A stretch of DNA of 61,744 nt, filler included, from Diploschistes diacapsis (Eukaryota): NCBI GenBank assembly GCA_023645945.1. It is 12 parts of 12 records of this genome, joined end to end, with 100 filler letters (N's around TTAATTAATTAA, not from the genome) between each part and the next. Parts side by side here need not be neighbours in the genome. Positions count along the whole stretch, not along the records: positions 29,450 to 55,262 come from JALAIB010000199.1; 11 more parts are not named here. The stretch is one strand, 5' to 3'. Shown piece after piece: positions 5,342-58,239 of the stretch. The position numbers and the translations under genes are program-made. The notes below the pieces were generated by a model. It was given only the letters and a program-made list of their open reading frames with translations. It had not been told where the DNA came from and searched no databases. The stretch's first letter is position 1. Each line of letters begins with the position of its first letter.

Positions 5342-5359
5342 CAATCCATTTTTTACTAA

Positions 5360-5700: not shown

Positions 5701-5703
5701 GAG

Positions 5704-19583: not shown

Positions 19584-19683
19584 NNNNNNNNNNNNNNNNN
19601 NNNNNNNNNNNNNNNNNNNNNNNNNNNTTAATTAATTAANNNNNNNNNNNNNNNNNNNNNNNNNNNNNNNNNNNNNNNNNNNN

Positions 19684-20016
19684 ATTATATATCTAGCTAT
19701 CTTTTGGCGCGTCGATAGAATCTATTTTTTTAATTTTCGATAATAGTTCGGGGTCGTCTTAAACGATCAAAATTATATTATTTATTATCGCGTTTTAAAG
19801 CTTTCTTTTTAATATATTAAGCTATAGAATAGGGAATATTAAACTTTTAAGCAACATTTTTAAAAGTATTACCGTTATAGAAGGCGCCGAGGAGCTCCGA
19901 ACGCTCGAAGGGCTTTAAACGGCGTTGTGGTGGCATAATTAGAAGAATAATAGCAAGAGTTGAATGTTTATTTACTACCGCTTATGGTGGACCTAACTAC
20001 TTTTGGCCTAGTACTG
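19684..20016 (-). mobile_element. Tc1/mariner-type element: 5' TIR plus decayed transposase N-terminus
   Basis: Minus strand reads TA|CAGTACTAGGCCAAAAGTAGTT (Tc1-like TIR with TA). ATG at 19936 gives MPPQRRLKPFERSELLG...RRPR (HTH region) with stops. Confidence 0.7.
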
Positions 20017-28992: not shown

Positions 28993-29449
28993 TAGCTAAC
29001 ATATTTCATCACTCAATGAGACAGCTGCGTAAAGTTCCCGTTCCGATATAGAATGGAGCAAACCAGTGAAAGCAAAAAAACAAGACCTTTATTTGTACAA
29101 GGACAGAGGGTGTTACAACGAGATAGGTTTTTAAAGGTCGGCGACGGGGCAGAAGCTCGCAGAATGACTACTCTAATAATGGTCAGCTCCCTGCTAGCGC
29201 AACGGGTGCTAACTGCCATGATCTTACAGATATATTTGAGCAAGTACTATTCTGCCTACTATACACATAAATTATAAGATAAATATTATGGTTTTATAGA
29301 TACTTTCTTAATCATCCAAATTTATCTGTAATTATAAGTACTTATAAAGNNNNNNNNNNNNNNNNNNNNNNNNNNNNNNNNNNNNNNNNNNNNTTAATTA
29401 ATTAANNNNNNNNNNNNNNNNNNNNNNNNNNNNNNNNNNNNNNNNNNNN

Positions 29450-31983
29450 GTGTTAGGGAGGTGCTGGTGGTGGATGGGGGCATGGTGGAGGACGACGAGG
29501 AGGTGGAGTGTGTGGCGAGGAACATGTGGTAGGTTTGGACGGAGGCACGGATGAAGAGGCAGGATAGCGGGATGGTGGGGAGGCCGACACGGCGGGTTAG
29601 GTTGGGGTCTGTGAAAGCCTGCAAATAGGTGAGTTGGTGGGATAGTTTGTGGAGATTGCGGGCGAAGGGGAATGAGAGGAAGCGGGGAAGAGAGGGGGGT
29701 GGCGCACGTTGGAGTAGTAATCTTTGGCAAGCACGTCGAGGAAGCGCCCGTAGATGTTGGGTTTTGTGGCATTGAACTTGGTGATGTAGGCGTGCTTGAC
29801 CCAGTCGACGAGCATCTCAGTGCCGAGGACGAAGAAGAAGGGGGACATTACTTGGCCGACCCAGTCCGGTAAGAGGGTGAAGCTGTGGGGTAGAAGGCTT
29901 GAGGTGGATTCTGGGCTGTTAGGGCTGTTAGGGCTGGTTGCTAGGAGCCCCCCAGTCTCGACAATGTTTCTTGCGGCAATGATGATTAGCATTAGCCAGA
30001 GTTGAAATCGTTCGACGACGTCGGCACAAGTCATTTGGAAGAGGTTCTCCTTTTCGATCTTTTTGAATACTGTGGACTTTATCTCAACGAATTGGTTTGA
30101 CATGAGTAGCGTCAGCAAGGCGTTCGAGTAGGAATTGACTGCGACATTGAGGGTGATGACCTGATAGAAAAGGGCTGTCGAATGGACAACGTTGTAGATG
30201 AGTGCCAGCAAGAAGAGCCAGAAAGGCCGAAGGATCTTGCTTCGACCGTTTGGCTTACGGTCTAATGTCTCCTGGGCAAAGAGACATTCTAAGATGTCCT
30301 GACCCAGTGCAGAGAGCAGTCGATCGAAAACCTCATCAAGTTAGCCAAACCTCTTTCAATCACCGTCGAACATACCTCGAGGGCGTTATAGATTACATAA
30401 AGCTTTATGGCAGCCTGACCACGGATGTTATGGTACATCATGCTGGCGTCGAAGAACGTCAGGATGTAACAACTGATTGCTATGAGAAGCCCTTTTAAAA
30501 TGTCGGCCTTGTCTACAGGCAGTAGGGTGGAAGGCCCTGAACGTGTCCTACGATGCGCTCTATTCGTCCTATGCCTCGAAGGCTCCGATTGCGGGACTTT
30601 TCCAGTTGATGTCGAACCAGCTAACCTGGAGTCTGCTGACCGCACACCTGCCGATACTGGCATCGTCCGCTTGCCTTTTGACCGATCTGGTGCCATGTCT
30701 GGTTGACTTGGAAGTTCATAAGGGACCAGAGCGGTACTGATCGATCTTCGCTCCCACATCCTACCCATACCAGTATAGACGTAGGAAGAAATGAAAGCTG
30801 CCTCTAAAAGGATATTCTCAACCCATGAGCGAGCGAGAACCGATATTGCTTTAGCGAAACGAATAGGTAGAATCGTCAAGGTATAAAGCCAAGCGTCAAG
30901 ACATGCAAAAGCGCCGAACCATAGAACCTGCTCTAGCTGCGGGGGTAAAAGCAGGAAATTCAGAAGCCGTTCAAGCTTGACGTGCGTAGGCTCGTAAGGG
31001 AAATCATTGCCAGGAGAACGGTACAGATACAGGGGCGATGGTCTATGCGAAGATAGTTCCAAATGCAGATGGGTTGGCACCGAAAGTGGCGGTAAGGGGA
31101 TCGAGTGTGGCATAGGAGATTGTAACAGCTCATCAGGTTTAGGAGCTTTAGATTCTGACTTAGCATCTCGCGTGTGCAGCGACTCTGAAGCGAGGCGCTC
31201 CTGCTTGAATTTGGGAATCGAGAGAGGTGCGATTCCAATAGTTTTAGTACTTGAAAGCTTCCTTTTCATAAGCGGCGTGGAGGTTGCTCGACCACCTATT
31301 CCAGGCCTATCAAGAGGTCGGCCCTTCAATCGCGGAAAGGAAGGAGACTGCAGGATCTCGTCTCCACTAACAGCTGGAGATCTGTCGCTACACGCAGCGT
31401 TTGGCGCAACGAAATCATCGTCCTCTTTCAGAGCAGAAGAAATGTTTGTGCTAACCGCTCGGTTCCTGGCAGGTGTGCTCTCTAGAAATGCCTTTGGTGA
31501 GATCAGAGGAAGGGAATCAGGGGCAAAGGTGAGCTCAATCAGCTTGGCAGGCGAGAGCTTCGACACCTTTCCTTGATCTACCTCTTCTTCTAATGAGATA
31601 CTGGCCGCCGTCTCTTCGGCTGGCACAACAACTTCGATCGCGCGTGTTCTTCGAGCTAATTTTGGGTGCAACGGACCTTCAGCCCTCCCTTCTGTCTCTT
31701 CCGGCGATCTGTTTAGCTCCGCGATTGCACCATCGCTGCCAAACTCTTTCCAGCCATTGACTGAGCGCAGTGAACTGATATGTTCTCTTTCTCTCAAGCC
31801 AGTTGGCTGGTATTCATGCGTAAGTGTTTGATCAGATGGCGACCTTGGGATAACGTTTACGCCATTAAAGTTTTCGCGCAACCCTTTTTTGACTGTCTGC
31901 GAAGACTTGCCGGTGTTGGCAGCATTGTGAGATTGGTAATTCTCGTCGTACTCGGCATTATCTGCAACCATCGCAGCTGGCAT
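29450..31983 (-). CDS. EMP65: ER membrane protein EMP65/TAPT1 (DUF747 family); exons 31983-30376, 30331-29708, 29618-29450 (3' truncated)
   Basis: CLDAWLYTLTILPIRF, DASMMYHNIRGQAAIKLYVIYNALEVFDRL, LNVAVNSYSNALLTLLMSNQFVEIKSTVFKK, VDWVKHAYITKFN. Confidence 0.92.
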
Positions 31984-35397: not shown

Positions 35398-38291
35398 ATG
35401 CCACCTCGTCCACCTCGTCCTACTGCGCACCAGGGCGATGGTCGAACCACACTTGCTGTCCCTGAGCAGTTGCACGATACTGACGGCTCTGATATAGATG
35501 GATCAAGGTCTCCTTCATCGAAAAAGCAGAATGGAACGCAAGCAGAAGCACCTGGGCCTGTCCTCTTTCACAAGGTCAAGAATCAGCGCTCGATCCTTTC
35601 ATTGCTTGTGAATAATGGCAAGATATTCGCCGGCACTCAGGGCGGCGAGATTCTGGTACAGAGACCTGAACGTCTTAGTGGTTTGACCGCCGTGTTGATT
35701 AGTCTGCTAGGTCTGGTCGCTGAGAACGTACCAGCAGCTGGCATGCATTGTTGCTCATCATGGAGCTGTGCTTGGCCTTTACTTGTCCGGCGACGGAAAG
35801 CTGCTCTTTTCTTGTGCTGGAGACGCCATAGTTAATGTATGGTTTCTCTTTCGTAGGTTGCTCAATTGCAAGTGCGTCTGCTAAATATCCAGGTCTGGTG
35901 TACTCGGGAATTCAATCGGATATACTCCATATATTCAACCTTCGATGTCGGCGACGTATTCTGTATTGCTTACTCGTCGACTCTCGATACTATCTTTTTG
36001 GGGGCACAAAATACAAGCATGCAGGTAATACTTATCCGTCACCCCATCGGAATGTGCTTTCTTACGTCCCCCAGTGGTATGATTTTTCTCGTAAAAACCA
36101 GAAACCCCGGCCAAACTTCAGCTCTCATCCTTCGCAACGAACACACAAGTTCTTCGATTCCAAAGGTCCTGGAGGGAGCTCGACTCCACGCTCGGAAGCA
36201 CTAGAACCTAGTTTTCATGATGGCGAAATCCTGGAGATTGGGGCTTCTGATATTATACAGTATGCGCACTACGGCTACGTTTACTGTATGCTACTTACGC
36301 AAAGCCTATCAATAGCCGACTCGAATGACGAAATACTCATTTCCGGCGGTGGTGATGGCACCATCAAGCTTTGGCGGTTGGCTAAATCTGGGGGTAGCGT
36401 TTCTGTGCAGGAGCTTGCCATCCTAGAGAGCGGAGATGGCTCGGTACTGTCATTGGCTCTCAAAGATACTTTGTTGTACAGCGGTAGGCTCGAGGGAGAC
36501 GTTAATGTGTGGGATCTGGATACACGCCAGCTTATCCAAACTATTAGAGTCTCCAACGTCGATATTCTGTCGTTAGCAGTTGGCTCTGGCTTACTCTTTA
36601 CTGGCTCTGCAAATGGACGAGCGAAGGTTTGTCCTTCTATCGGGTGCCCTACATACGCTAACCGCTCCGAAGATGTTCGAGCGTTACAAATGCAAAGCTG
36701 AGTGGAGAGCACATGATGAGCTTATACTTGCCTCCGTACTCACCTCAGAGGGTAACGACCATTACCTTGTGACCGGTGGTAATGATGATACAGTGGCGAT
36801 CTGGGATTTGACGGGCTTTCTGAACAAGCAACCAATGTCTTTGCGGCCAAGCAATGGTAAGGTCTGCACCCCACATTTGGTGTTGAAACTGCCTAATGAT
36901 AATCAGAACAACTTGTGCAGTCTCTGACTCGCTTTGTCGCTTTTCCTACTGTTTCGTCAAGGCCTGAACATGCGGAAGACTGCCGTCAAGGTGCCTCCTG
37001 GCTAAAGAACTGCTTCAAGCGAATTGGAGCGCAAACTGACCTACTAAAGATTGAAGGAGCTTGCAATCCTATTGTCTTCGCCTATTTCCGAGGCAGATCT
37101 CGCTCAGGCAAGAAAATTCTCTTTTACGGTCACTACGACGTAATCTCTGCCGAAAACCAGCAGCAAAAGTGGACCAGCGACCCGTTCGTTCTTCAAGGGC
37201 GAGATGGCTTTCTGTACGGCAGAGGTGTTTCGGACAACAAGGGACCCATCTTGTCTGCCGCCTATGCAGTAGCCGATCTGGTAGCAGAGAAGAATCTAGA
37301 AACCGACGTCGTCTTCTTGATCGAAGGCGAGGAGGAATGCGGGTCCCAGGGTTTCGAGCAAGCAGTCCGAAAGCACAAGCACTCGATAGGTGACGTGACC
37401 TGGATCCTTCTAGCCAACAGCTACTGGCTCAGCAACGATTTCCCCTGCCTAACCTACGGCCTGAGGGGCGTCGTCCACGCCAGAATAACCATAGAAGGCG
37501 GTCCGAAGGACCTCCATAGTGGTGTCGCCGGCAGCAACCTCAAGAATGAGCCCTTGAAAGACCTCGTCGCCCTGCTCGCTACCCTAACAGGCCCTAACAA
37601 TCGCATCACCATTCCCTCCTTCTACACCAATGTTCTCCCAATAAGCGCCGAGGAAGAACAATGGTATGCGGCTATCAGCCGGACGCTGTCGCAAACTACC
37701 CCGAGGAAAGCCAAAGCCCAACAGGACCCGGATTCCCTTAAAGCCAAATGGCGCGAGCCATCCTTCACCATTCACGGTTTTACGACGTCTAGCTCCGTCA
37801 TCTCGACCATCATCCCTCACCTCGCTAGCGCGGAGATCTCCTTCCGCCTCGTGCCCAACCAAGATGCACAAGAGATCTCAAACGCTCTAGTCTCTTACCT
37901 GACAGACAGATTCCGAGCCCTGGAAACGAGCAACAGCATCGGCATCAAGGTCGACCACCCCGTCGACCCCTGGCTCGGCGATCCGAACAACGAGATCTAT
38001 CAAACTCTGGAAGAAGCCATCGTCGAGGTCTGGGGGCTCCGGAAATCGGAACCTTCTAACGGCAGAACCCAAGACAACGAGAAGCCGCAGCGACCGCTGT
38101 ATATCCGCGAAGGAGGCTCGATACCGGCGATCCGGTTTCTGGAGAAGGAGTTTGGCGCGCCAGCGGCGCAGTTGCCTGTGGGCCAGGCGAGCGACAACGC
38201 GCACTTGGAGAACGAGCGGCTGAGGCTGCTGAACCTCTATAATTCGAGGGAAATCTTCAAGCGGGTTTTCGAGAGGCTGGGCAAGAATTGA
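35398..38291 (+). CDS. DUG2: Glutathione degradosome subunit Dug2 (WD40 repeats + M20 peptidase domain), about 6 exons
   Basis: WD40 repeats (ISGGGDGTIKLW, VTGGNDDTVAIWD) fused to M20 motifs FYGHYDV, YGRGVSDNKGP, EGEEECGS, DLHSG, REGGSIP, DNAHLENE. Confidence 0.93.
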
Positions 38292-39328
38292 GGGTAGAAA
38301 GATGGACGGGGACGGACCGGCTGATGCCATCAGGGGGTCGCCAGGAGCGGACGGGATGGGAGGGTGCGGTCAATGAGGTGGCCAGCGGAAGCAGCATGTT
38401 GGACCCGCTTACGTGGTCAGTGGCGGAACGGCGCTACGGATGATGGTCTTTCGGTACTTTGGGATGATGATAGGGGCTAGGGTTATAGACATGGGATAGA
38501 TAGCGTGCAACAACACGGGGTGCGTTTGCGTGGTGGCGATACGCTCGCCTGTTGGATACGATGCCGGGGGGAGGGGGGGCTTGGAAATGAGGATCACAAA
38601 AATGCACGAACCTACGATCGGTACAACGCTGAAGTTCCAAATCTATTATTCCTTCTTACCGAAATCTATTCCGTGCGGAAAGCGCTCGGTGTAAAAAATT
38701 ATGTACCCATGAATTGGCGCATCCCATTTGTGCTCCTTTTTGTCCGTTCCAATTTTGAGAACCCGTTCGTATCCCTCGTATGGTAGTTACTCCACGCCAA
38801 GCCAGCCAGCGTTCACGCGCACCGCAGGCCCCCCCCCCCCCCTTCTCCCATGCAGTATGCAGTATGCGAATACTACGAACGAGGAGAATTCCTGCTGGAT
38901 GATGGGAAAAGCCCGTTAAGCTATGATCGGCTATTGGGGATGATGGGCTGAGAAAAGGACTAGAAAAAGGTCAATGCGGGATGCAACCTTACTTAGTACT
39001 TGCGGAGTAATGATGTGCCCCCTTGGGTGTTGGAAATCAAGACTTTGACTTATGCAAAGATCTACAGTAAGTTTTTAATTTTCGATCAAGACTTCTAGCA
39101 ATTGATAGAGCGATAACTAGAGCATTATTGCGTATTCGGATGACTAGTGCTCCGTAGGCCGACAAATTTCAGATGCTAACAAGACGACAAGTGGTGAGTG
39201 GTATTTTTTTTTGGTAACCGACCTCGCGACACCCACCGACGCAGCAAAGAATGATGTTACACCATATCAGTCTGATGTGCCTGCACCGTCCAAATCGGTG
39301 GCCTCAAACTGCCAAGTTGAGTGGAGCC

Positions 39329-39676
39329 CTAGTACCTGCAACCTTTGGCGGCAGCCGAAGATCCTGGTTCCACGGTCAGTCATGCCAGGAAGCCTCTGCC
39401 TTGCTTACCTTGGATATTCGGTATTGCCTTGTTGGCTACCCTCTGTTTCCCACCCTCGGTGAAAGCCATACCGTCCAGATCGACTTTTTTGTGGGTAGAA
39501 GCGGGAGGCGGGTTCTTTGGTGCTACGGCAGCTGCTCTAGCTCCCACAGCCGGCAGGGAGCTCGTTTTGGTCGAGTACAACGTGCTATGGCGTGTGGTGT
39601 CATGTTTCAGCAGCTTCTCGAGAGCGGTAAAAGTGGTGTCGCAGCCTGCCTCGGGACATTTAACAGGCTTGTCCAT
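39329..39676 (-). CDS. Small (~100 aa) protein with one N-terminal C2H2 zinc finger; exons 39676-39409, 39363-39329
   Basis: KCPEAGCDTTFTALEKLLKHDTTRH fits C-x4-C-x3-F-x5-L-x2-H-x4-H. ACAATG start context. GTAAGC...CTGAC...CAG intron. Confidence 0.6.
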
Positions 39677-41130
39677 TGTCGAGTATCATCCAATAAACAA
39701 GTTTCGGACAAAGTGACCTGGGTCATAAGAAATGGCGACGAAGCGTTAGAAAAGATGTAAAGCCCCCTAACCAAGGTCAATTAGATCAAAGAGAGAACTC
39801 GAGAGTGCGATATATCTGTATCAGAAATGGCATGAATAGAATACTCCTTTCGACTCCCTCAGCTTCGAAAATACCGATGCGAGGTTACATGCACCTTTCC
39901 AACTCTTCGAGACTGGAGGCCCGGACCGCGCGTGGCTGTCTTCATGGCATCCGGCTTCAGGGCTACTTGTAGCAAATACTTTTTTCTTTAAATGACACGT
40001 CTCTTGCATGAGGAGCGCTTCCCCAACAGACCGGACAGGGGAGCTATACCAGCTACCGTGGCAAGTCGGAAAAGACGACGACAATCAACCACGACAGAAG
40101 AAGGCTGGAGAAATCTCCACAAGCCGCGGATATCTGCATGGCCAGTGTCCTCATGGTGACTTGCAATAGCCTCGTACCAATTTATGCAGTTTTCCAAAGC
40201 CAGCAACGAAGAAGATGTGACGACGAACAAGTCAGTGAAAGTCCCAGCGTCTTAAAAAGCTGATTGAAAGGCCCCATAGGTGTTTTCCGAGATTCTGGTG
40301 CCCTACTGGGTTAATTAAACTCACGAACCTGGTCCGGCAACTAGCCATTTGAAGTCAAAGTAAAAGGGCATTTTTCCGAGTGCTCTGACTCGCTGGCCAA
40401 ATCTTGAGCAACTGTTCCTGATTTGGATCGTGATTATTGTTCTTAATTGCTTTGCGATTTCATATTCATCATGGGCCTGGGCTGGCCGTGCTTTCAGACA
40501 CTCTTTCCGCAAGTTCAAGTTTAAAAGGCGCGGAGAAGAAATCGTTGCACACAAGGTAACCTGTTTTGTAGCCCTGCAGCCTTTTCGCTACAACTTATGC
40601 CTGTTTTATCCTTGTGCTTGGTTTTAATGCATGTCCAGACCTTTCTGACATCCCTTGGCGCATGGGACATTAATTCCAGATGGTCAAGTGTCGGCATTAC
40701 GGCATGAGTGCATGCTGGGAATTCGTTCAGCACATTTGTGTCGTTTCAATTGCGGCTACAGGGAGATCGCTCCGACTCGATGGACTCCAATGGGATACCA
40801 CACCATACGACCTGTCGGTTCGCATCGTACCTAAGACCCCCCTTCACAGGAAGCCCACATGGCTCGTTGGCCTTTTTCTAGGAATCCAGAGAGCCACGCC
40901 GGAGTAAGATGCCGATACTTTAAGGACCGTTACTATCTGCGGACGGCATAGTGCATCCACGGGGGAAGCGCCTCTTCGTTTTTGGCAGATGATCATCCGG
41001 GTCATTTGCAGGGTACAAAGGCTTACGTACCCAGCAGCAGCGCCACAGACGAACAGCTACTTATGCCCATTCTAGCATATTGCCTGTTCAACAACTCGGC
41101 CCCGTCATTGGAGACATGGTCGATCCGACC

Positions 41131-41154
41131 TGTGTGTGTGTGTGTGTGTGTGTG
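41131..41154. repeat. (TG)12 microsatellite
   Basis: Directly visible. Confidence 0.95.
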
Positions 41155-42263
41155 TCTCATTCCCCCCGGGCACAAAGTCCTGCCTCCCCTCCTCTGGTGC
41201 CTTTTTCTTACCGACAATCAAGAGCCCGCCAGATTTTCTCCTCACCGACTCGTAATCAGCAAAAGGAGCTAGCTGCATCGAGACACCGCAGACCACCATC
41301 CTTCCCTTTGTTCTGAACGAAACGGAGTGCAACCCTACTAATTTCCCTCGCATGGAGCTTGCAGAGGGAAACAGGAAACCCGGTATATGGGTAGCCAACG
41401 AAACGTCCAAAAAAACAAACATTGACACAATACATGTCACATCCAGACTTTAGCTGGGGGCCGAAACCCAATGTTGACAATGCGTGGGCAGAACAGTCTA
41501 AAAAATAAAAAATAAAAAGACAAAGCTGCGGACTCAGCAGGTTCGCCCCAGGGTCTAGCCACCCCCTTTTTCACGAATAAGAGTGTTGAGAGATGCACAA
41601 CAGGTCCGGGCCAGGCTTCCGAGACCACAAAAACTACCCAGCACGGAGGGGGGACGGGCAAGCATAGAAAGGATGAATCTTTTTTACTAAACGTTCGATG
41701 GGCAGGCCTGCCTCTACTAGTCCGCTGGGAGTAGGGGAGTGCAGCAACGTCATGTATTTTTGTTCTTCGCGTGTTCAAAGAGCTTTTTGCCATTTTTTTT
41801 TTCTTATCTTTGCCATGGGCCAAGCCAATCTCGAGAACCGCACGCACGCCTACCTTGCGGAACCTCAAAGTGAACAACAGGCTTGAGAAGAGTTGCAAAC
41901 GGGGGCTTTTGAAAATCAAAATCAGAGAGGGCTTCCATCTACCCAAGCCCCCAACTTGTTCTAGTAGTGAATGCTAGCTAGATTGACAACGTGCTATAAT
42001 CGTAAAGCTTTGCTCAGAATTAAGCCCAGCCATAACAATGGCAACCCATTAGCCCGTATTCGTGACAAGCCCGCTATGATCCCCCTTTTCACATTCTCGT
42101 GATGGTTTTTTTTGAGGAGATTTTCTTCCGTTCATAAGTCCAAACCGCCGAAAAGTTCGAAGTGTCTACCCTTCTTCCACGTTGCATATAACACCGAGAC
42201 GAGACAGAAATCGCTAGAGGCCGAAGTGATCGAAATAGAAAACTAGGTGGAGTCTTGAACCCT

Positions 42264-42271
42264 TATATATA
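42264..42271 (+). promoter_or_regulatory. TATA-like box upstream of the candidate telomerase RNA
   Basis: TATATATA shortly before the structured GC-rich region begins. Confidence 0.5.
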
Positions 42272-42289
42272 TCCCATACGCTGCCGTCA

Positions 42290-43530
42290 TCGTCTATTTC
42301 CAAGGCCGGAGGAGGAACGGGGGGCTTCGAAGCCCCCGTCGAGTGCGTCCTCGCAGCCAGCGTCAAGTCCTTGCTTGGGGGCCTGGGAGCCCAGTCTGAG
42401 CGGTCTTGGCTGAAGAAGAGAGAAGAAGTCTTTCTAACCCGTGGGCCCTATATGGCTCCGAAAGTGCCCTAACCGGTTTTGATTCACATCACGTTTCTTT
42501 TGCTCGATGGAGACAAAGTCCTCCAGGAAAACGTTCGACGGCACAGATCCCGCCGATGAAGCAGCAACGCCGCGCGGCTCCTGAATTCTCGCTCGCAGAG
42601 TGGGCAACAGAGCGCAGCCTTCCTGCCCCGCTTCTTCCCCCCGTATGTAGTGGGCCTCGTCTTCGCTGCGCTGGAGCGGCGACGTAGTGCCCGTGCTTTG
42701 TCCTCCATCGCCCGAGGCTCCGGCGACGATACCGATTCGCCGCACTTGATACCTCGCAGCCTCTCCAACGCTTGCCGCTTGCTTGGACGCTCCTTGTGGA
42801 GGCTGCTCGGAGAACCCTCGAGTGAAGGCAAGCGGGTCGGCACGCCGCGGGAAGCGGTAGGGTGCGCTAGATTGAGCTTGAACCCTCGCGCGTCGGAAAA
42901 ATCAAATGCCAGGCTTGTGTGCGAGGGGCTCTGGTCGAGGTAACAGTGTATTGGCTTCGGGGTAGAGTGCGGATCGAAGAAGTCCGGGTGCGGCGCGTCC
43001 CCCTCCTGCGTGCTGATGTTCACAGTCGGTATTCTGTTGGGCGATGCTTCCTCGTAGGTGAGGATCAAGTACTGCATCTCTGAGAACTGCAGAAACGCGT
43101 AAGGTGCGGCAGCGTCTCCAACGTTGTTGACGGGGGGGGGAGGGGGAGTGGTAGTTCGGTTTCTGGCGTAAGGCAGTTTTGAGTCAAATGATATGAGCAT
43201 GTGCTGCGCTCGATAGAGATGCAACAACTTTATAATTCAGATACGGCGAGTTACAAAGAGAGAACTTTCCTGGAACATGAAAAGGTTTTCCATGGCCCTC
43301 AGTGTTCCTGAAGAAATAATCGCGAAGTAGAAGCAAATCATCACATTGAACTGAGGGTGAAGAAGAAAGAACTTATTTTGAACGAGTGCATGATATTTCC
43401 GCAGCGGGATTTGGGGTTAGCTCCGACGTACCTTGAACAACAGTGCCAGCCCTGAGGCGATTGCTGCCTAGCAACCTCCTGCACGTGATTTTTCACGTCG
43501 TAACCTAGCAGGCAGTTTGCCAGGGAGCCT
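42290..43530 (+). ncRNA. TER: Candidate telomerase RNA (TER); ends approximate
   Basis: Core-enclosing helix 42396-42409/43290-43302. Boundary hairpin 42430-42464. Template CCCTAACC 42467-42474. PK1 42478-42486/43180-43188. PK2 + PK2.1 42493-42506/43247-43265. CR4/5-like P6 (43397-43409) and P6.1 GGGG-UUAG-CUCC (43413-43424). Order and topology match Pezizomycotina TERs. All pairings were derived by hand. Confidence 0.78.
42484..43077 (-). CDS. Putative 197-aa C2HC zinc-finger protein, antisense to the candidate TER
   Basis: Stop-free frame (to 43227) containing GGKKRGRK and CPLCEREFRSRAALLLHRRDLC (C-x2-C-x3-F-x5-L-x2-H-x4-C). Could be a chance ORF in GC-rich structured RNA. Confidence 0.4.
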   Translation of the reverse strand: MQYLILTYEEASPNRIPTVNISTQEGDAPHPDFFDPHSTPKPIHCYLDQSPSHTSLAFDFSDARGFKLNLAHPTASRGVPTRLPSLEGSPSSLHKERPSKRQALERLRGIKCGESVSSPEPRAMEDKARALRRRSSAAKTRPTTYGGKKRGRKAALCCPLCEREFRSRAALLLHRRDLCRRTFSWRTLSPSSKRNVM

Positions 43531-46500
43531 TATCCCCATAGAATGAAGGCATTGATCGAATCGGCAATATAATAGAAGTCGTATTGCCCCTCCCCAGCGT
43601 GGAATCGGTGACACTGTTGAATTTCTATGGCAAATGCAGCGTGTAAAAGAAGTTGCAACTGTGCGAGGGTGAAAATCAGTGTAAGAGTGGGATGGGAAAA
43701 CTCAAAAGTTGCGCTTGTTCGCATATATGAGTGCTTAGAAACACGAGCGACTAATACGTGAATTCAAAGTCGTCGAGACAGAGCTCGAATGCTATTCGAA
43801 CCAAAAGCAGTATCAGCGAAAGAAGGCAGCAGACGAGGCGCCAGTCAGTATTGTTGGAAACATTGATGCGGATTTTCAAGGCAATGCTCGTTGATAGTAA
43901 CTAAATCAGAAAGCTCGCACGCCATGAGACTGTGAAAATGTTCATATATGCTTGTTTATTTGTAATCATAGACCGTGACCTCGGGCGAACGGTAATTCGG
44001 GAGAGGAAGCACAGGCTATCATGGTTGCAGGATGGTTTACTAATAGTCCTTGTAACTGTGACTTGAGCGCGCCCCTATCTGTAGGCTACCTTGTTTCCTT
44101 TCCAAGGCTAACTTCATGTCATCGGGCTACCTAAGGTACATTTGAAGCAACAAACTGCGTAACATGTCAAATTAATGCCAGACTCGAATGAATGCCATAC
44201 AGTAATGGATTATCTCCCTTCACAAAGACCAACCATATTTTTGGACGACCTCCGATGGCGAGGCGAGGCCGAGGGGTCAAGTGCTGGCCAAAGCGTTGCA
44301 GAGCATGGATGACTTTGTGTACCTGCTAGTCGATCATGCAAATGGGACCTCGCCTCATGGCTTGAGGTTCCTAAATTCTGAACTTCTGTCGGAGTAGTTG
44401 CGCCTCTGTGACTGTTTTCCGTATAAGGAAGTAAAACGTGGAATCTAACCTCTAGATTAGGAAACAGATTTGGAGTCGTTAGGATAGTAGGGCCAAGCCC
44501 TATTACTCCCAAGCGCGTTGATAGGTCCCGGTTCGCCTTTGTAAAAAGCCTCCGCTTTCGGCCAAAGGCTGTTCCGAGGAGTCACTATGTTGGAAGGAAC
44601 AAACGTATTGAAGTAGTTAGTCCCGAGTCGTTGCATGGGTACCGAACGCCAAATCTGATTTGCAGAGCAGGAGCTTGCATCAAGCTCTATGGCTTTGCGG
44701 AGTACATCACAGCAATAGGAGGCTGGCTTCAAACGGTGAGCCTTACGGCACGCGCGCCGTCTGAGACTCCTCAAAGCTTTGGGGTTTTGAGAAGTATCCA
44801 TATGCTAGGGTCGCGTTTTGCAGAGCACGCCGGCCCACTTATTCGCAATGCTTCAGACGAGAACTCAACACTGAACGACTGCGCGAAATCGCAACCAGCC
44901 CAGCAGCGGATCGTACTAAGGTCGATTGTACAGCACCCACCCGATCAAGAACATCGAGCACCAACCCATCATGTTCTGTGCTGGACGATATTGCTTGGCT
45001 CTCGGCAAAATCCAAGGCTCGGGTGACGGCGACGTCTTACGCGATAGGGTTGTTCCCAAGCTGTAGTGACTCGGTGATGGATCATCATTGGAATCCCATC
45101 GGAGGAAGAACATCACGGGTTCCTAATGATATATTGTGTGAAGGTGAAACCCGCACGTCGCCCAAAGAAGGACCTTCAAGCAGAAGTTTTGTATTCTCTC
45201 GATAGTCTTGACCTTCGCGGAGTCTCCTGTTCGTGGAGTACGTATGGTAGAGAGAGCTCTTTGGAATGGGTCTGCAGCTAACCATTGCTTAGAAAAGCGG
45301 CTGGCAGCCATACTTCCAAGTTCCCATTACTGCTTGCTACTTCATTCGCGACCGCACTTGATAAGGCACATGGGATTCCGCTAAAGTGCGAGATAAGAGT
45401 TGAAGGATTCGTGCACTTGGTTTATCGCCTTTCAAGCGGCGAAATAAGAGTTGAAGAATCCGTCCCATTGGTATACCGCCTTCTAAGCTGCGACTCTTCC
45501 GTAACGGGTTGCGGACAATACCGACTGTATCAACGACTGAAGTCCCCAAGCGGATGAACCTTGGCTAGATATTGAGTGTTAAGTCTGTGTGTCGAGACAG
45601 CACTATACCGATGGTGGAAAATACATGATTGTTGTCAAGTCGTCGCTTGCCTTGCACGTATGCCGCGAGCCTGCGAGCCTCACTGGGGTATAGCATTCAG
45701 CTCCTTCTTTTCTGAATGAGGCTACTGTTGCCGGACACTTTCCAGAGACCGCAGCAATAGAAACTCCCTCTCCGGTGGTCGACAAGTTTGACTCCTTCGC
45801 CATGATTATTATTGTTCTTCTCTTACTCCAATTATATTGCACGTCCACGTTCATCTGGTTAATGCAGTCATATTTCAGATTACCTGACCGATCAAAGATC
45901 CCTTGTCTGGGTAGACGATGACTGTGTGTCGAGACTGAAGCGCTTGGTATGGCCTCATACAAACCTCTTTAGCAAGCATTGCATGCTTTCAGCGTCCATT
46001 GTTTAAACCAATACCACACTGAACCATGTTCCTGGCTTTGAGAATGTTGTCCAGCCCCGGAGATGTTCTTATAGCTATAACAGGTCTTATCCTTGGTTTT
46101 GGTTTAGATTGGCTCACTCTTGCAGCTATGGACGGCTCAGCCACATCTGAAAACTAATATTGATTCACCAGTTGGGTTTCGATGACAGATCGGACTCCTG
46201 GCCTATATAGTGTTACCAAAGCTTCGACATAACCCTTCTGAAGATCTTCATCCTGCTTGTCATAGTCTTACCTAGAAACGAACCAGTCTGAAATGAGTAT
46301 CAGACTGCTCTTTCGTAGCCGAGAAATGCTGCTAACGGTGTCATCGAAGGTTAACAAAGGGTCCTCTTCTCCATTGATAGCTCTAGATTTGTCCGTTGGC
46401 GGAGAGTGTGAAGTTGACTGCTTGTGATAGGAATGGTTGGTTGCAGCTATGATCTGAAGCGCAATATTAGAGGCAGCAGATGGAGCTCAACGAAGAAAGC

Positions 46501-49500
46501 CAGAAGCCTTTCGCGCGTCCGGTTTGCTCAAGGCAGGCAAGCCTTAGCACCTTCCAGTGAAACCATCGGTGGACCATGTGAGAAACGGTCGGCTAGAGTG
46601 CGCGAAGGCATAAAATCCATATTTCTCGGACAAGATGTACCGGACCGGCATGGCGTGTGAAACTGGCTTGTGTGACGCTTGTCTGGTGGAATGCCAACCC
46701 TCTCCTCTACGATCACGCAGACAAAGAGCAGCAGAGATCTATCTGTACAGGAAAAATACTGTGCGGTTTGTGTTACAAGGCTTGAGAGATGCCCTTCTAT
46801 AGGGCTATGTGCGGCTGATAGGCGCCGATCCCTGCATGCACATAGCAGCACGCCGAGCATGTCTGAAAGAAGCCGTTAGTTACCTTACTCACCGAGCTTC
46901 GCCTCCGAAAGATAGGCTGTTAACCTATAAAAATACTCTACCGATCGGTACTGCACAATCAAACAACAGTATCTGGCGTGCTGAGCTTGATACGCCTAAT
47001 GCTTTGGCGCGATACAACGCGACTTGAAGGCACTCTAGGGATGACACCGAAGCTACCATCCTCATATGTCGAGAAAGAGTTGTTTGGAGACAACGGTAGG
47101 GCAGCGTCAAGTGCATCCCGATCTCTAACACCCCTAGGGCAGAATCTGCAAGACCCCAAAGACCTGAGAATGAAAGGACAACAAGCCTGTCTTCATTCTA
47201 AAGATGCCTGCTCGGTCTACAAAGCTATACACTTTCGCCTCGGTCTTAGTAGATATTGATCGGGCATCGATTGTCCAACAGACTGACCGAATACTCATCC
47301 ATCAGAGATAGGATAGATCAATCCGCCATGCCCACTATGAACATAGCATCCTATGCAGAAGATCTTGGGCCGTGCGCCACACCGAAGCACAGCGAAGGTG
47401 TCGAAGGAGAATGCGGTTGCATCCGACGGAAGATACAGCCTTAAGGTTGAGGCACAATGAAGGGTGGGTTTGCGGTTGCATCCTTCTCGGGAGCAGCTGG
47501 CTCATTACGGAAAGATGCTACAGAGATGATGCTCACACGTGGCTGATGCATGTCCGGTACGCACAACGACAGCTTTCTAAAGACCTCGGGATAACTTTGA
47601 GATATCCCCTGCGCACCGGTATCGACTCGATCCACTCGTTTCTGCAAAGTCACAGTTACTGAGGCATTTTATTGGGTGTTCCGAGAATCTACAACATAGA
47701 AACCTTGTGGTGGACCGAGGATCTATGAATGTATACAAAAAACTTAAGAAAGGAAGAGCACGTTTGGAAAAGGGCGGTGGGCCCAGGGGCACTCCTGCTG
47801 GTTTAGCCGCAGTCAAGGACACACAAGCTTCTGAAAACTGTCCAAATGCACATCCTCAAATTTCACCAATCTAAAGATACGACCGACAGAGAGCAAGTTG
47901 TCAAACCATGAATACCCAGAATATCTCATAATGTCGCCACCAGGAACATTCTCCTGCACCGCAAACGCACATACGGAGCGCAAGCAGAGGAACATTACGA
48001 TACTACAGCGCATGAGACAAGGAACCCGACAAAAAAACAGGAAACAATGCAATTAGTTAGGATCACCTGGTCGGAAGGCCAATCTGCCTTAGAAAGTATA
48101 ATGGGCCTCACGAGCAATACTACCCACCACTAGGAAGTAGTAGGCGTCATCGAATTGGAATGTCTCCCAAACCTCCGCCATTTTCGAAGCCCGACCTCAA
48201 TTCTCTCTTTCGCAAATAAAATTGGCATGTTCGGGCTAGCATCAGCACCGTGATTACGTCGAGCTATGGATACGCGATGCAGCTACCGCGCTTTGTTAAT
48301 CGGACCTGACAGCTCACAGAAATACCACCCTGAATCTTGGCTAGCGCCCAGCCTAGCCAACAGCGTAAGAAATAATCTCGAAAGCGAAGATCCTACCTGC
48401 GAGGTCAAGGTACGGAGGCTTCATCTGCCTTTCTGTCTTAGTACCTACTTGGCTTGCCAGCCTTGAGTATGCGCGCTAAAGAAGTAACGAGCGGTGGATC
48501 CTACAACGGTCTTGTTTGGCATTTCATTCGCTGCCTTCATAACACTGGCAGATCTCACCTCCGCGAGAGCATACGAGGCTCGTTCATCGAGGAAGTTCCT
48601 GGCGAAATGGGCGCTTGACTCTGACGTTGCCTTGGGTCTCCCTTCGGGACAACGTAATGCTCATTAGCACGCACGTTTCATCTAATTCTTCGAACTCCAC
48701 CGCTCTGCTTTAAATCAGTCAAACGGAACCTAATTACTATGACAGCGCTCGAAGTCTGTTGGAGGAGTCTGCCTTCCTACCACCTTGTTTCACACCTATT
48801 AAAATAAGTCAAGATGGCCAAAACGTAGTAGTACAGAACAAGGGTTTCAACAGTCCAGGCATCTACATTGACTTCAGTCCATACCTTTTACAAGAACCCC
48901 ATATGCTAGAATGTCACGAAACAAGAATGCGACAAGCGAGACAAGCATCGTCGGGTAACAGGCAATTCTTCAACACTTCGCAAGCTGCTTTGTGGATACC
49001 TTTTTCAATGGTACCTCGCGCTTGCCTGCGTCGGCTCTATGACGATCCTCGCCAGTGCCTCGCACCATCATTGTCCGTCCTTCGGCTAAGTTACCCTCTC
49101 TATTCGGCTTTGCGCTCTCTGCCTTCTTACTTCCATACCTCTTCTTGGATATATAATACTGCTCCTGCGACTCAGATGGACATATTTATGGTTCGCTATG
49201 AGGCAGCAGCATGTTAGCCACCGTGTTCCTCCCTCTCTATCGATCCTCATCATCCTCATCTAAGAATTCAAAAACAATCGAGCACCTGCGTGGCGGAACT
49301 AGCCCATTGATATCGCCGCCCCGTCTACCTCCCTCTCCCTCTATATCGCGCCCTCGGATCTCGAGCGAGCCAATAGAAGCATGACTATCAAGCCCTGCAG
49401 TCCCCCGAGGAGACCCCAGCGTACCCAGGCTAGGCATGTCTCCCCTGTGGAAACCCTTCGCTGTCTTGCGGCAAGGTGGACGCTGGCGATCGTGCCCCAC

Positions 49501-55520: not shown

Positions 55521-58239
55521 GCAAAGAACCAATCAGATCAAAGAATTAAACGCTTTCATTCTGACAATGCGCTAAAATATAAAAGCAAGGCGCTTACTGG
55601 CTATTTCGCAGAAAAAGGAATAATAATTACTTATTCCGCACCTTACGCGCCGGAACAAAATGATTCCGTAGAAAGATTAAATCTAATTTTACTAAATAAG
55701 GTTAGATCGCTACTTATTTAAGCAAAGCTTAATAAGCAATTCTAGAAGGAGGCGCTAATAACCGCGATTTACTTATATAATCGAACATCTTATTCGGTAA
55801 TAAGTTTCAATACTTCCTATTTCCAAAAAACAGATACTAAGCTTAATTTAAAAAACATTCAATTATTCGGCTCATTAATCTATCGAACCGAGCCAATAAA
55901 ATCGAAGCTAGATCTTAGGGCAAAATCTTACATTCTAATAAAGTATAGATCTAATTAATACAAGCTTCTGAATCAGACTACCAACAAAATACTATTCGTT
56001 AAAAATGTGACTGTTTTAAAGGACGCTAAGCCTATTTAGGTTAATATTATAGAACAAGAATTACCTACTTTAAAAAACTTAGAAGAAGTAACGCATCTAA
56101 TCGACCTACTTACGGCAATTTACTAGAAGATATCAATAGTAACGATATCGATAACAACGATATCAATATTAACATTAATTTAAACGATGCAGGCGATCTA
56201 AGCGACGACGCTAGTCCAAATATAGACATAGACGACGATAACTTAATTAATATTAATCTAATAAACCAGCTAGCAGAAGAATTAGCTTTAACAGCTATAC
56301 CTGATCCGGTTAGTTACGAAGACGCCATGTCACGTGACGACTGGGAGAAATGGTGAGAGGCCATGAAGGCCGAAATAGCTAAGCTAATTAAGCAAAATAC
56401 GTGGACACTGGACACACCGCCAAAGGGCAGAAAGATTATTTCCGGAAAATGGGTCTATAAAACCAAGCTAGGCCTAGATGGGACACCGGAGAAATACAAG
56501 GCCCGGTGGGTGGCACGTGGTTTTTCGCAGCTACTGGGGATCGATTATTCCGATACATTCGCCAGCACAGCAAAAACAGCAATATTTAGGCTATTAATTA
56601 GCCTAGCCACTAATCTCGATCTGGACATCTGGCAATAAAACGTTATGTCAGCATTCCCTAATGCCGACCTAGATAAAATCATCTATATAATCCAGCTAAT
56701 AGGATTCGAGGATTCAACCGACAGGGTTTATTTATTAAACAAAACCCTTTACGGCCTAAAGCAATCTGCCCGTCAATAACAAAAAAAGCTTATAGGGGTG
56801 CTAGTCAAATGCGGACTAGCGCCGATTACGTCAGATTAAACTATTTTTATATAGGTTAACCCATTAATCATTATCCTAACACATATGAACGACATGCTGA
56901 TATTTTTAATTAATAAAGAAGTAGTTGACAATATATTCAATAAATTAACGGCTGAATTCGAAATGACTAATATAGACTAAATTAGTCGATACGTCGGTAT
57001 TAAAATTATCCGAGACCGAAAAAACAAAAATACGACGATTATTTAGCGAGGATACGTCAAACAATACCTAAAAAAATACTAAAAAGGTATTAAAACCGCA
57101 ACTAACTTTTACCGAATAGAAATAAAATTAGAATCTAATCCCAAATAGGCTAGCGCGGATGACATCAAGGCATATTAATAATAAATAAGGTCGCTTATTT
57201 ATTTAGTGATAATAACTAGATCTGATCTAGCCTATCTAATAAAACTATACGTTAGATTTATATAGAATCCAGGTTTAGACCATTTCTCGGCGCTAAACCG
57301 CATTTGGTAATACCTACGTCATACCTGGAATTTCGGTATATCATATAATTAGACCTTTTATGGCCTAAAAGGCTACTACGATTCTGATTGGGGGGGGGAT
57401 TATGAAAGCCGAAAATCAATTAGCGGTTATTTATTCTTAATCGGGACTAGCGTCATTTTCTAGGTATTTATTCTGCAAAAGACAGTGGCGCTTAGCAACT
57501 ATGAGGCTAAATATATGGCGTTAAAATAAGCGATAAAAGAACAGTTATATCTAATTAATACACTTAGTTAAATTCTTTATTTAGATAAGGAATTAATTAA
57601 ACATATTTTTATAGATAGTTAATCAGCGATCGAGCTAGCGAAATACCCTGTACATCATAAGCGGACAAAATAAATTGATATTTAGTATCATTTTGTTCGA
57701 AACAGCGAATGAAAAACAAAGATATATATTTAAAATATATATCCACCAATTAGTAGCTAGCGGATAACCTTAATAAGGCAGTACCTAATCAAAAATGGCA
57801 GGAGTTTATATCCATAATAGGACTAGTGCGAGTTCATTAGTCCTATCAGACCTATCCACTGACTAACCCATTTATCTTATGGGGGTGTGTCAGAATACTA
57901 ACCTAAATAGGTTAGTCAGATTGCTTATTAAGCTTCTTAGCATGTTAGAATATTCTGGAAGGTTCTAGAATATTCGGCTTATTAATGCATGGAATGATTT
58001 AGAAGGATAAGGAACATTCTAGATTAAATTATTACTAATCACACTAGCGTGAAATGTGCCTATAAAAGGCCTCTCACCCTTTATCGTTCTTAGTTATAAC
58101 CTTCAACCTCTTCAATGCAATCATTGAACAATAATTAGTTACCAGGCTAGGCAGGCTAGGAATATTTCCTAGTTAGGACTAGCTGCTGAATCCATCTTAG
58201 TCATCTGTTATCTATTAGGAACTTCCACCACTTTCAACA
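55521..58239 (+). mobile_element. RIP-degraded Ty1/Copia element: integrase, RT, RNase H, PPT, 3' LTR (57888-58239)
   Basis: RFHSDNA, SAPYAPEQN, KWVYKTK...KYKARWVARGFSQ, LYGLKQS, YYDSDWGGD...RKS. GGGGGTG PPT, then TGTCAGAA...TTCAACA. Confidence 0.93.

What the first reader, a model, noticed from the sequence alone, without database searches (positions are those of the whole stretch)
42484..43227. Zinc-finger ORF encoded antisense inside the telomerase RNA pseudoknot insertion
Seen: the minus strand has a 744-nt stop-free frame (ATG at 43077) almost exactly spanning the insertion between the pseudoknot strands. Its TGA stop lies within the PK1 5' strand. It encodes a basic NLS-like GGKKRGRK and a full-consensus finger C-x2-C-x3-F-x5-L-x2-H-x4-C. 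Established: a basidiomycete (Ustilago) TER is processed from a sense protein-coding mRNA. I know of no antisense protein gene nested in a TER core. Inference: either a dual-coding TER/zinc-finger locus, possibly mutually regulated, or a captured gene fragment that built the insertion. A chance ORF in GC-rich RNA cannot be excluded.
Basis: partly seen in the sequence, partly recalled or inferred. Interest (0 to 1): 0.75.

Follow-up and report, generated by a model that had tools for sequence, protein, structure and literature searches.

The report
Small fungal zinc-finger gene, no telomerase RNA
The open reading frame is a real gene for a small zinc-finger protein found in lichen-forming fungi, but I found no support for the idea that it lies inside a telomerase RNA gene, so it looks like an ordinary gene.

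Summary
The minus-strand frame is real: 250 codons stop to stop (42484..43236), ATG at 43077, 197 aa, with the GGKKRGRK patch and the C-x2-C-x3-F-x5-L-x2-H-x4-C finger as described. It is not a chance ORF. A full scan of 1.84 billion representative proteins gave 9 homologues besides the window's own protein (E 5e-15 to 5e-5), and their residue 1 aligns with the Met at 43077. Two of them are named hypothetical proteins of the lichen fungus Thelotrema lepadinum, three locus tags apart. A related strain or species (X2) has 23 substitutions and no indel across 42451-43137, while the flanks carry indels.

The telomerase RNA (TER) premise failed every test I could run.
- The "template" CCCTAACC is one of 10 telomere-like matches of 8 nt or more in the window, and 3 of these are longer.
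- The 9-bp "PK1" helix is no better than random partner segments give.
- Downstream on the + strand there is no P6.1-like hairpin and no AUAAGU 3' processing site.
- Rfam gave no telomerase hit.

Verdict: an ordinary single-exon gene of a small, unnamed Lecanoromycetes family. Expression could not be tested.

The parts
42484..43077 (-). Single-exon CDS, 197 aa plus TGA stop (42486-42484). The start at 43077 is the one conserved in the family.
   Evidence: tblastn of 12 of 12 family proteins hits 43077..42535, E 9e-21 to 9e-6; family HMM E 7.9e-63; next best ORF in the window E 1.8
42853..43077 (-). Conserved N-terminal domain (residues 1-75). It has four predicted beta strands and the motifs M-x-[YF]-L-[VI]-x-T-Y, P-x-V-x-I, P-I, Q-S-P-S and F-[ND]-D-x-R-G-F-x-L-x-L. 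No Pfam model and no clear fold match.
   Evidence: A1 invariant P17 P36 P42 I43 F60 G65. AF2 strands 2-9, 18-25, 43-49, 53-60 with pLDDT about 80. Foldseek gave nothing at E<=1e-3. VIA-align best Z 4.2.
42721..42759 (-). Conserved linker motif L-x5-G-E-S-x-S-S-P inside a predicted disordered Ser/Pro/Arg-rich region.
   Evidence: L107 G113 S115 P119 nearly invariant. pLDDT below 50 over residues 79-105 and low up to about 147.
42619..42642 (-). Basic patch GGKKRGRK just before the finger. A basic run is present in most family members. In X3 it reads KKKK.
   Evidence: X3 loose end at 42650 (the alignment is my own)
42541..42606 (-). Single C-terminal C2H2-type finger. Here the fourth ligand is Cys (C-x2-C-x12-H-x4-C).
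   Evidence: Pfam zf-C2H2 E 0.013, 16.4 bits, below the 25.2 cut-off. Family profile against PDB: ZBTB17 finger E 5.1e-7, SALL4 1.7e-5. AF2 hairpin plus helix 168-184, pLDDT about 90.
43228..43234 (-). TATAAAG on the minus strand, about 150 nt upstream of ATG 43077 and only about 30 nt upstream of ATG 43200. Candidate core promoter (inferred).
   Evidence: read from the sequence; inference only
42467..42474 (+). Chance-level telomere-like 8-mer in the 3' flank of the gene.
   Evidence: one of 30 matches of 7 nt or more and 10 of 8 nt or more in the window; longer ones at 16917 (10 nt), 21650 (9 nt) and 11713 minus strand (9 nt)
42478..42486 (+). 5' arm of the claimed 'PK1' helix. It pairs with 43180-43188 (9 bp, 1 G-U). 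Chance level.
   Evidence: 272 of 369 random 170-nt partner segments gave a helix of 9 bp or more with the same 5' segment

Best explanation
This is an ordinary, single-exon, minus-strand protein-coding gene (ATG 43077 to TGA 42484, 197 aa). It belongs to a small, unnamed protein family seen so far in lichen-forming ascomycetes (Lecanoromycetes).

The protein has three parts: a conserved N-terminal beta-strand domain of about 75 residues, a disordered Ser/Pro-rich linker with a conserved G-E-S-x-S-S-P motif, and a basic patch directly followed by one classical beta-beta-alpha zinc finger at the C-terminus.

Shown: the frame is conserved as protein, and the start, the motifs and the zinc ligands are shared with homologues.

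Inferred: the protein enters the nucleus through the basic patch. It binds nucleic acid with the basic patch plus the single finger, in the manner of single-finger proteins that need a flanking basic region. The N-terminal domain acts as a partner-binding or effector module. On this reading it is a lineage-restricted regulator.

The + strand across it is not a telomerase RNA. The template-like 8-mer and the 9-bp pairing are chance features of the gene's 3' flank and 5' leader.
For: Homology:
- 10 proteins at E<=1e-3 (9 besides the window's own), 5 at E<=1e-10, among 1,835,955,588 representatives. Query residues 54-57 align to residues 1-6 of 7 of the 9 hits.
- The alignment has 6 invariant and 12 nearly invariant columns, including C158, C161, F165 and H174.
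- tblastn of 12 of 12 family proteins hits only this locus significantly. The family HMM hits 1 ORF in the window.

Family context:
- P0003 and P0011 are hypothetical proteins MMC10_005017 and MMC10_005014 of Thelotrema lepadinum, a member of Lecanoromycetes. They are only 26% identical over 72 residues.
- Two ENA members share a longest-contig length of 50520 (P0012, P0013), and two others share 44681 (P0010, P0014).

Relatives laid on the region:
- The X2 contig covering 42451-43137 has 23 substitutions and 0 gaps. The flanking X2 pieces have 31, 2, 7 and 11 gap letters.
- At least 12 X2 indel events are listed in 43142-45000. At that rate about 4 would be expected in the 594-nt CDS, Poisson P(0) about 0.02 (my arithmetic).
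- The X3 piece 42650-42843 has 5 substitutions and 0 gaps.
- The X3 loose end reads as an in-frame 3-nt gain (one extra Thr) plus GG to KK (my alignment).

Composition and structure:
- GC3 is 0.71 against GC1 0.55 and GC2 0.56.
- The finger is confirmed by the family profile against solved fingers and by the AF2 model.

Against a TER: as listed in the summary.
Against: - A codon-usage log-odds trained on 5 ORFs of the window does not single out the frame: frame 0 scores -0.002 and frame 2 scores +0.036.
- Only 4 of the 23 X2 substitutions were displayed. Two are synonymous (L224L, P212P) and two are not (R228G, A207T), so purifying selection is not demonstrated from substitutions.
- The substitution density in the ORF (3.3%) is not lower than in the upstream flank 43142-45000 (1.9-2.5%).
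- The Pfam finger scores are below the gathering thresholds.
- The fourth zinc ligand is Cys, not His.
- No RNA data exist for either strand, so expression of the gene, and the absence of a + strand transcript, are untested.
- The function is inferred from architecture alone.
- No Pezizomycotina TER model or sequence was available, so the TER tests are by defining features, not by homology.
Confidence: 0.82

Rival explanations
1. Dual-use locus. The + strand is this fungus's telomerase RNA, with the template at 42467-42474 and a pseudoknot whose downstream loop carries a 0.7-kb insertion. The conserved zinc-finger gene is transcribed antisense inside that insertion.
For: - CCCTAACC at 42467-42474 is followed by a U-rich stretch (GTTTCTTTTGCTC, 42493-42505) and preceded by a possible 5-bp CTTTC/GAAAG helix.
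- A 9-bp pairing exists between 42478-42486 and 43180-43188.
- Pezizomycotina TERs are 2-2.4 kb, and the downstream pseudoknot loop is said to often harbour large insertions (PMC3592445, passages).
- 43240-45000 looks non-coding: it carries indels in X2.
Against: - The 8-mer is within chance. There are 10 matches of 8 nt or more in the window and 3 are longer. The N. crassa template is 9 nt.
- The PK1 pairing is at or below the control median.
- No complement of the U-rich strand lies downstream at 2 mismatches or fewer.
- There are 0 strict P6.1-like hairpins on the + strand in 42300-46500. With G-U pairs allowed there are 4, against about 5.6 expected.
- No ATAAGT lies on the + strand between 42135 and 48803.
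- Fold z-score is -0.60.
- Rfam gave no telomerase hit at E<=1.
- The N. crassa TER 'lacked an apparent ORF'.
- The family has two or more members per genome.
- The prior that a 62-kb window holds a single-copy gene of a genome of tens of Mb is well under 1% (inference).
Confidence: 0.02
2. Chance or non-functional ORF in GC-rich DNA. The frame is open by luck or is a decaying relic and makes no functional protein.
For: - An ORF of this length arises in about 10% of simulated 3-kb sequences with the ORF's own composition.
- The codon-usage score is not discriminating.
- 2 of the 4 visible X2 substitutions are non-synonymous.
- The fourth zinc ligand differs from the family norm.
Against: - Homologues at E down to 5e-15 share the start and the motifs.
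- No indel in 687 nt in X2 while the flanks have them.
- The only indel inferred in X3 is in frame.
- GC3 is elevated.
- The whole length of the protein aligns to the homologues.
Confidence: 0.05
3. The gene is real, but the finger is not a DNA-binding module. It binds protein (for example ubiquitin, as UBZ-type C2H2/C2HC fingers do) or RNA, and the protein is an adaptor rather than a transcription regulator.
For: - A single finger alone rarely gives sequence-specific DNA binding (established knowledge).
- The window's finger is C2HC.
- VIA-align lists UBZ fingers among the tied low matches: Pol eta UBZ at Z 3.1, rmsd 1.6 over 31 residues, and RAD18 at Z 3.1.
- One family member hits zf-C2H2_jaz (dsRNA-binding) at E 0.0064.
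Against: - The best sequence matches of the family profile are DNA-binding fingers: ZBTB17 5.1e-7, SALL4 1.7e-5, SUPERMAN 0.026.
- The basic patch directly N-terminal to the finger fits nucleic-acid contact.
- All the structural matches have Z below 5 and are tied.
Confidence: 0.2

Closest known systems
Hypothetical proteins MMC10_005017 (P0003) and MMC10_005014 (P0011) of Thelotrema lepadinum, and 10 unnamed homologues (P0004-P0010, P0012-P0014)
   Same: Same length class (153-248 aa), same start motif, same N-terminal motifs, same G-E-S-x-S-S-P linker motif, and the same basic patch plus single C-terminal finger.
   Different: Only 25-35% identical to the window's protein in A1. The window's finger ends H-x4-C where the others have H-x3-H or H-x4-H. 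One member (P0007) also lacks the last His, and P0005 lacks the finger altogether. None has a described function.
Classical C2H2 zinc fingers (Pfam PF00096), e.g. ZBTB17/Miz-1 finger 5, SALL4 and SUPERMAN
   Same: C-x2-C-x3-F-x5-L-x2-H spacing and a beta-hairpin plus helix in the AF2 model. Profile-to-PDB matches E 5.1e-7, 1.7e-5 and 0.026.
   Different: There is one finger only, with no tandem array. The Pfam scores are below threshold. The fourth ligand here is Cys. The rest of the protein is unrelated.
Pezizomycotina telomerase RNA (Neurospora crassa TER, 2049 nt; Qi et al. 2012, PMC3592445)
   Same: Only a telomere-like 8-mer next to a U-rich stretch, and flanking DNA with no detected coding sequence.
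   Different: No 9-nt template, no supported pseudoknot, no P6/P6.1, no AUAAGU 3' site downstream. The N. crassa TER has no apparent ORF.
Ustilago-type TER made from a protein-coding mRNA (PMC9564094; only the start of the abstract was seen, in the listing)
   Different: There the TER is processed from the sense mRNA. Here the proposal was antisense nesting, and no TER is supported.

Membership tests
Telomerase RNA (Pezizomycotina type) | Template of one telomere repeat plus an alignment region (9 nt in N. crassa), standing out from chance | tested here: not met
   Only 8 nt (CCCTAACC). There are 10 matches of 8 nt or more and 30 of 7 nt or more in the window, and 3 are longer. The N. crassa template length is.
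Telomerase RNA (Pezizomycotina type) | Template-adjacent boundary helix | tested here: inconclusive
   A 5-bp CTTTC/GAAAG pairing (42429-42433 with 42461-42465) can be drawn. It is not in the MFE fold, and the fold of 42300-42520 has z -0.60.
Telomerase RNA (Pezizomycotina type) | Pseudoknot (PK1/PK2) with a U-rich triple-helix strand | tested here: not met
   The best helix across the 'insertion' is 9 bp with 1 G-U; 272 of 369 random partners do as well. No complement of the U-rich strand lies downstream with 2 mismatches or fewer. No covariation data were available.
Telomerase RNA (Pezizomycotina type) | CR4/5 three-way junction with P6.1 (4-bp stem, 5-nt loop NUNGN) | tested here: not met
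   0 strict candidates on the + strand in 42300-46500 (about 1.3 expected). With G-U pairs allowed there are 4 against about 5.6 expected, none next to a convincing P6 hairpin. This was a crude descriptor, not a covariance model.
Telomerase RNA (Pezizomycotina type) | 3' end made by spliceosomal cleavage at a non-canonical AUAAGU 5' splice site (shown for Aspergillus; PMC4299874 passages) | tested here: not met
   No ATAAGT on the + strand between 42135 and 48803. The nearest (42134) lies upstream of the putative template.
Telomerase RNA (Pezizomycotina type) | Sequence or structure homology to known TERs | not testable with these tools
   Rfam 15 gave no telomerase hit at E<=1 over 38000-48000, but I saw no sign that it holds a filamentous-ascomycete TER model. 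The supplement of PMC3592445 with the alignments could not be read.
Telomerase RNA (Pezizomycotina type) | An abundant + strand RNA associated with TERT | not testable with these tools
   No RNA run is listed for this DNA.
Classical C2H2 zinc finger (PF00096) | C-x2-4-C-x12-H-x3-5-H ligand pattern with a conserved F and L core | tested here: inconclusive
   C-x2-C-x3-F-x5-L-x2-H is present, but the fourth ligand is Cys at +5. Homologues have His there.
Classical C2H2 zinc finger (PF00096) | Score above Pfam's gathering threshold | tested here: not met
   16.4 bits against a cut-off of 25.2. 6 of 10 family members match at E<=0.1, best 0.0026.
Classical C2H2 zinc finger (PF00096) | Beta-beta-alpha fold and similarity to solved fingers | tested here: met
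   AF2 gives a hairpin plus helix 168-184 with pLDDT about 90. The family profile matches ZBTB17 at E 5.1e-7 and SALL4 at 1.7e-5. Miz-1 finger 5 aligns at rmsd 1.4 over 30 residues, Z 3.1.
Unnamed Lecanoromycetes small single-finger protein family (A1) | N-terminal motifs, G-E-S-x-S-S-P linker motif, basic patch and C-terminal finger in this order, 150-250 aa | tested here: met
   End-to-end alignment with 9 homologues. Family HMM E 7.9e-63 on this ORF (the ORF itself is in the model). Reciprocal tblastn E 9e-21 to 9e-6 for 12 of 12 proteins.

The most novel reading that the evidence does not exclude
The + strand really is the telomerase RNA of this lichen fungus, with a short 8-nt template and a divergent core that my crude descriptors miss. 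A conserved zinc-finger gene would then sit antisense in its pseudoknot loop, so that TER and the gene interfere with each other's transcription. My tests find no support for this but cannot exclude it, because no filamentous-fungal TER model and no RNA data were available.
Probability: 0.02. Interest if true: 0.8.

Novelty: new member of a known kind. Interest (0 to 1): 0.15.

Why it matters
As it stands it matters little. It is one more lineage-restricted small C2H2 protein, useful mainly for annotation. The gene should start at 43077, not at the upstream ATG at 43200 that the 238-aa predicted protein on record (P0002) uses.

Two points of modest interest remain. The family has an N-terminal domain with no Pfam model and no clear structural match. 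It also occurs as two divergent members on the same contig in at least the one named lichen fungus. It could therefore be a lichen-fungal regulator family worth a look.

The main value of this check is negative. The nested telomerase-RNA reading rests on motifs that occur by chance in this window, and it should not be carried forward without RNA evidence.

Tried and rejected
- Whole genome: none is held for this window, so I could not look for the true TER or for paralogues elsewhere.
- RNA evidence: no RNA holder is listed for this DNA, so expression of either strand is untested.
- Read laying:
  - X1 (the possible source run) laid 0 contigs.
  - The substitution table was cut after 40 rows, with 103 not shown. 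Only 4 of the 23 X2 substitutions in the ORF piece could be classified, so dN/dS could not be computed.
  - The indel table was also cut (61 rows not shown).
- DNA around homologues:
  - The search for related loci in metagenome contigs with A1 was not possible, because no conserved stretch was found.
  - With the window protein it found no relative.
  - With the closer alignment A2 it found no relative.
- The search for homologous proteins with the 197-aa protein found only the window's own protein. The full scan without a word index was needed. Longer or shorter fused forms were not searched.
- Protein Atlas: recognition 1918 is below the level that known families usually reach, and the hits are unnamed animal clusters and generic C2H2 clusters. 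No use.
- Foldseek against PDB found nothing at E<=1e-3. VIA-align wide had best Z 4.2 and none at 5 or more. The N-terminal domain was not folded alone.
- The codon-usage log-odds was not discriminating.
- Supplement of PMC3592445 (the TER alignments): the file could not be read. It may hold the P6/P6.1 and pseudoknot consensus that would allow a proper test.
- Earlier findings of this scan: nothing by place, by sequence or by words.
- An alternative TER placed upstream (39765 to 42133) was considered because of the AUAAGU at 42134. There is no strict P6.1-like hairpin in 39000-42300 and no other support, so it was dropped to a passing note.
Full report
**What is there.** The window is fungal DNA. 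ORFs in it match eukaryotic Pfam families: DUF747 'eukaryotic membrane protein', peptidase M20, WD40 and others. No prokaryote genome is held for it. The one run that holds all sampled words of this stretch is labelled a lichen metagenome (X1).

On the minus strand a frame is open from the stop at 43237-43239 down to the TGA at 42486-42484, which is 250 codons. The only correction is that the frame is open to 43236 rather than 43227, and that a further in-frame ATG lies at 43200.

**Is it more than chance?** Length alone is weak evidence. With the ORF's own 59% GC composition, 0.0975 of 2000 simulated 3-kb sequences had an ORF of 250 codons or more. With the regional composition the share was 0.004.

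Homology is decisive.
- The word-indexed search found only the window's own predicted protein.
- The full HMMER scan of 1,835,955,588 representatives found 10 proteins at E<=1e-3, meaning the window's own and 9 others at E 5.2e-15 to 4.9e-5, of 153-248 aa.
- In 7 of the 9, the match starts at residues 1-6 of the hit and at residues 54-57 of the 250-codon frame, which is the Met at 43077.
- The alignment A1 has 6 invariant and 12 nearly invariant columns. These include an N-terminal block (L4, Y8, P17, I21, P36, P42, I43, P51, F60, G65), a linker motif (L107, G113, S115, P119) and the finger (C158, C161, F165, H174).
- Three more members (P0012-P0014) came.
- All 12 family proteins hit this ORF by tblastn (E 9e-21 to 9e-6), and nothing else in the window below E 0.03.
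- A family HMM hits one ORF of the six-frame set (E 7.9e-63; next best 1.8).

**Evidence from close relatives.** Contigs of two other runs were laid on 41500-45000.
- In X2 ('organism A') one contig covers 42451-43137 with 23 substitutions and no gap. The flanking X2 pieces have 31 gap letters (41567-42400), 2 (43142-43498), 7 (43545-44449) and 11 (44481-45000).
- At least 12 X2 indel events are listed between 43220 and 44785. At that rate about 4 would be expected in the 594-nt CDS, Poisson P(0) about 0.02 (my arithmetic).
- The X3 piece 42650-42843 has 5 substitutions and no gap. Seven other listed X3 pieces have 2 to 20 gap letters each.
- The X3 loose end before 42650, aligned by me, reads as a 3-nt in-frame gain (one more Thr) with GGKK changed to KKKK.

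Results that do not help the coding case:
- Only 4 of the 23 X2 substitutions were displayed, 2 synonymous and 2 not.
- Substitution density in the ORF piece (3.3%) is not lower than in 43142-45000 (1.9-2.5%).
- A codon-usage log-odds trained on five ORFs of the window does not separate frame 0 (-0.002) from frame 2 (+0.036).
- In favour, GC3 is raised (0.71 against 0.55 and 0.56).

**What the protein looks like.**
- Pfam sees only the finger, below threshold: zf-C2H2 16.4 bits against a cut-off of 25.2. 9 of 10 members match zf-C2H2_4 and 6 of 10 match zf-C2H2 at E<=0.1.
- The family profile matches solved classical fingers (ZBTB17 5.1e-7, SALL4 1.7e-5, SUPERMAN 0.026). The listed best stretches all end at profile positions 183-187, and nearly all start at 149 or later.
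- AlphaFold2 on A1 gave mean pLDDT 65.6. It has four strands in residues 2-60 (pLDDT about 80), a disordered middle (79-147), and a hairpin plus helix 168-184 at pLDDT about 90.
- Foldseek against the PDB gave nothing at E<=1e-3. VIA-align against 48,161 chains gave a best Z of 4.2 and none at 5 or more.

So the N-terminal domain has no recognised relative in these searches. It was not folded alone, so I do not claim a new fold.

**Where the family occurs.** P0003 and P0011 are hypothetical proteins MMC10_005017 and MMC10_005014 of Thelotrema lepadinum, a member of Lecanoromycetes. They share only 26% identity over 72 residues, so they are old paralogues three locus tags apart. Two unnamed ENA members share a longest-contig length of 50520 (P0012, P0013), and two others share 44681 (P0010, P0014). 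This suggests two members per contig there as well. The window itself has one member.

**The telomerase RNA premise.** I tested the features that define a filamentous-ascomycete TER. I took them from PMC3592445 (abstract, sections 18 and 19, passages), PMC4299874 (passages) and PMC4993307 (passages).
- Template: CCCTAACC (42467-42474) is 8 nt, while the N. crassa template is 9 nt. The window holds 30 telomere-permutation matches of 7 nt or more and 10 of 8 nt or more. Three are longer: 10 nt at 16917, 9 nt at 21650 and 9 nt at 11713 on the minus strand.
- Pseudoknot: the best helix across the 'insertion' is 42478-42486 with 43180-43188 (9 bp, one G-U). It is the one that contains the stop codon. 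The same 5' segment finds a helix of 9 bp or more in 272 of 369 random 170-nt partner segments. The complement of the U-rich strand occurs downstream only with 3 mismatches.
- CR4/5: no 4-bp Watson-Crick stem with an NUNGN loop lies on the + strand in 42300-46500 (0.31 per kb window-wide, so about 1.3 expected). With G-U pairs allowed there are 4 against about 5.6 expected.
- 3' end: no ATAAGT on the + strand between 42135 and 48803.
- Fold: 42300-42520 as RNA has z -0.60 against shuffles.
- Rfam: no telomerase family at E<=1 in 38000-48000.
- Context: the N. crassa TER 'lacked an apparent ORF', and a family with two or more members per genome cannot as a rule sit in a single-copy TER.

These are feature tests, not homology tests, because no filamentous-fungal TER model or sequence could be obtained. 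With the low prior for any one 62-kb window, I put the TER reading at about 2%.

**How the gene most likely works.** Shown: a conserved, single-exon coding frame with its start at 43077. Inferred:
- A TATAAAG on the minus strand at 43234-43228 lies about 150 nt upstream of that ATG. It is only about 30 nt upstream of the ATG at 43200. That fits the family's start and suggests the 238-aa predicted protein on record (P0002) is too long.
- A TATATATA at 42266-42273, about 210 nt past the stop, could serve 3' end formation.
- The product would enter the nucleus through the basic patch and bind nucleic acid with the patch plus the single finger. The N-terminal domain and the conserved S-S-P linker motif would serve as partner or regulatory sites.
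- A protein-binding or RNA-binding finger is a live alternative.

**Verdict.** The ORF is a real and ordinary gene of a small, unnamed lichen-fungal family. The nested telomerase-RNA interpretation is not supported. Interest is low.

Noticed in passing
window 39380-39676 (-): A 98-aa ATG ORF that opens with a C-x4-C ... H-x4-H finger-like motif (MDKPVKCPEAGC...). It gives weak tblastn matches to the finger part of three family members (E 0.03 to 0.5) but has no Pfam hit at E<=0.1. It may be an exon of another small finger gene. A CCCTAACC 8-mer lies about 90 nt upstream of it (39765-39772, + strand).
   Followed up: partly
window 42100-42210 (+): A U-rich tract followed by ATAAGT at 42134, with a TATAAC and ACAG 50-75 nt further on. 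Superficially this is like the Aspergillus-type TER 3' processing intron. However, ATAAGT occurs 17 times on the + strand of the window, and no strict P6.1-like hairpin lies in 39000-42300.
   Followed up: partly
window 42320-42337: A perfect 18-nt palindrome GGGGGCTTCGAAGCCCCC in the 3' flank of the gene. The stretch 42339-42554 shows no listed X2 substitution. Up to about 5 differences near contig ends may be unlisted, so the conservation is not clearly unusual.
   Followed up: no
window 4001-12000, 16001-20000, 56001-58000: AT-rich blocks (GC 0.25-0.36) between stretches of about 0.50 GC. This is the isochore-like pattern expected of repeat-degraded DNA in ascomycetes. Not examined.
   Followed up: no
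window about 29350-29460: Runs of N (masked or unassembled letters) seen in the flanks printed.
   Followed up: no
window 41133-41157 and 43132-43146: A (GT)n microsatellite and a G9-A-G5 run in the gene's 5' leader. X2 contigs break at the G run, and a loose end there differs from the window. The stretch between the ATGs at 43200 and 43077 may therefore carry a length difference in X2.
   Followed up: no
window 42622-42652: In X3 the basic patch reads KKKK instead of GGKK, and one extra Thr codon precedes it (my alignment of the 28-letter loose end of one contig at depth 4). The CTT-repeat there looks like a short coding microsatellite.
   Followed up: partly
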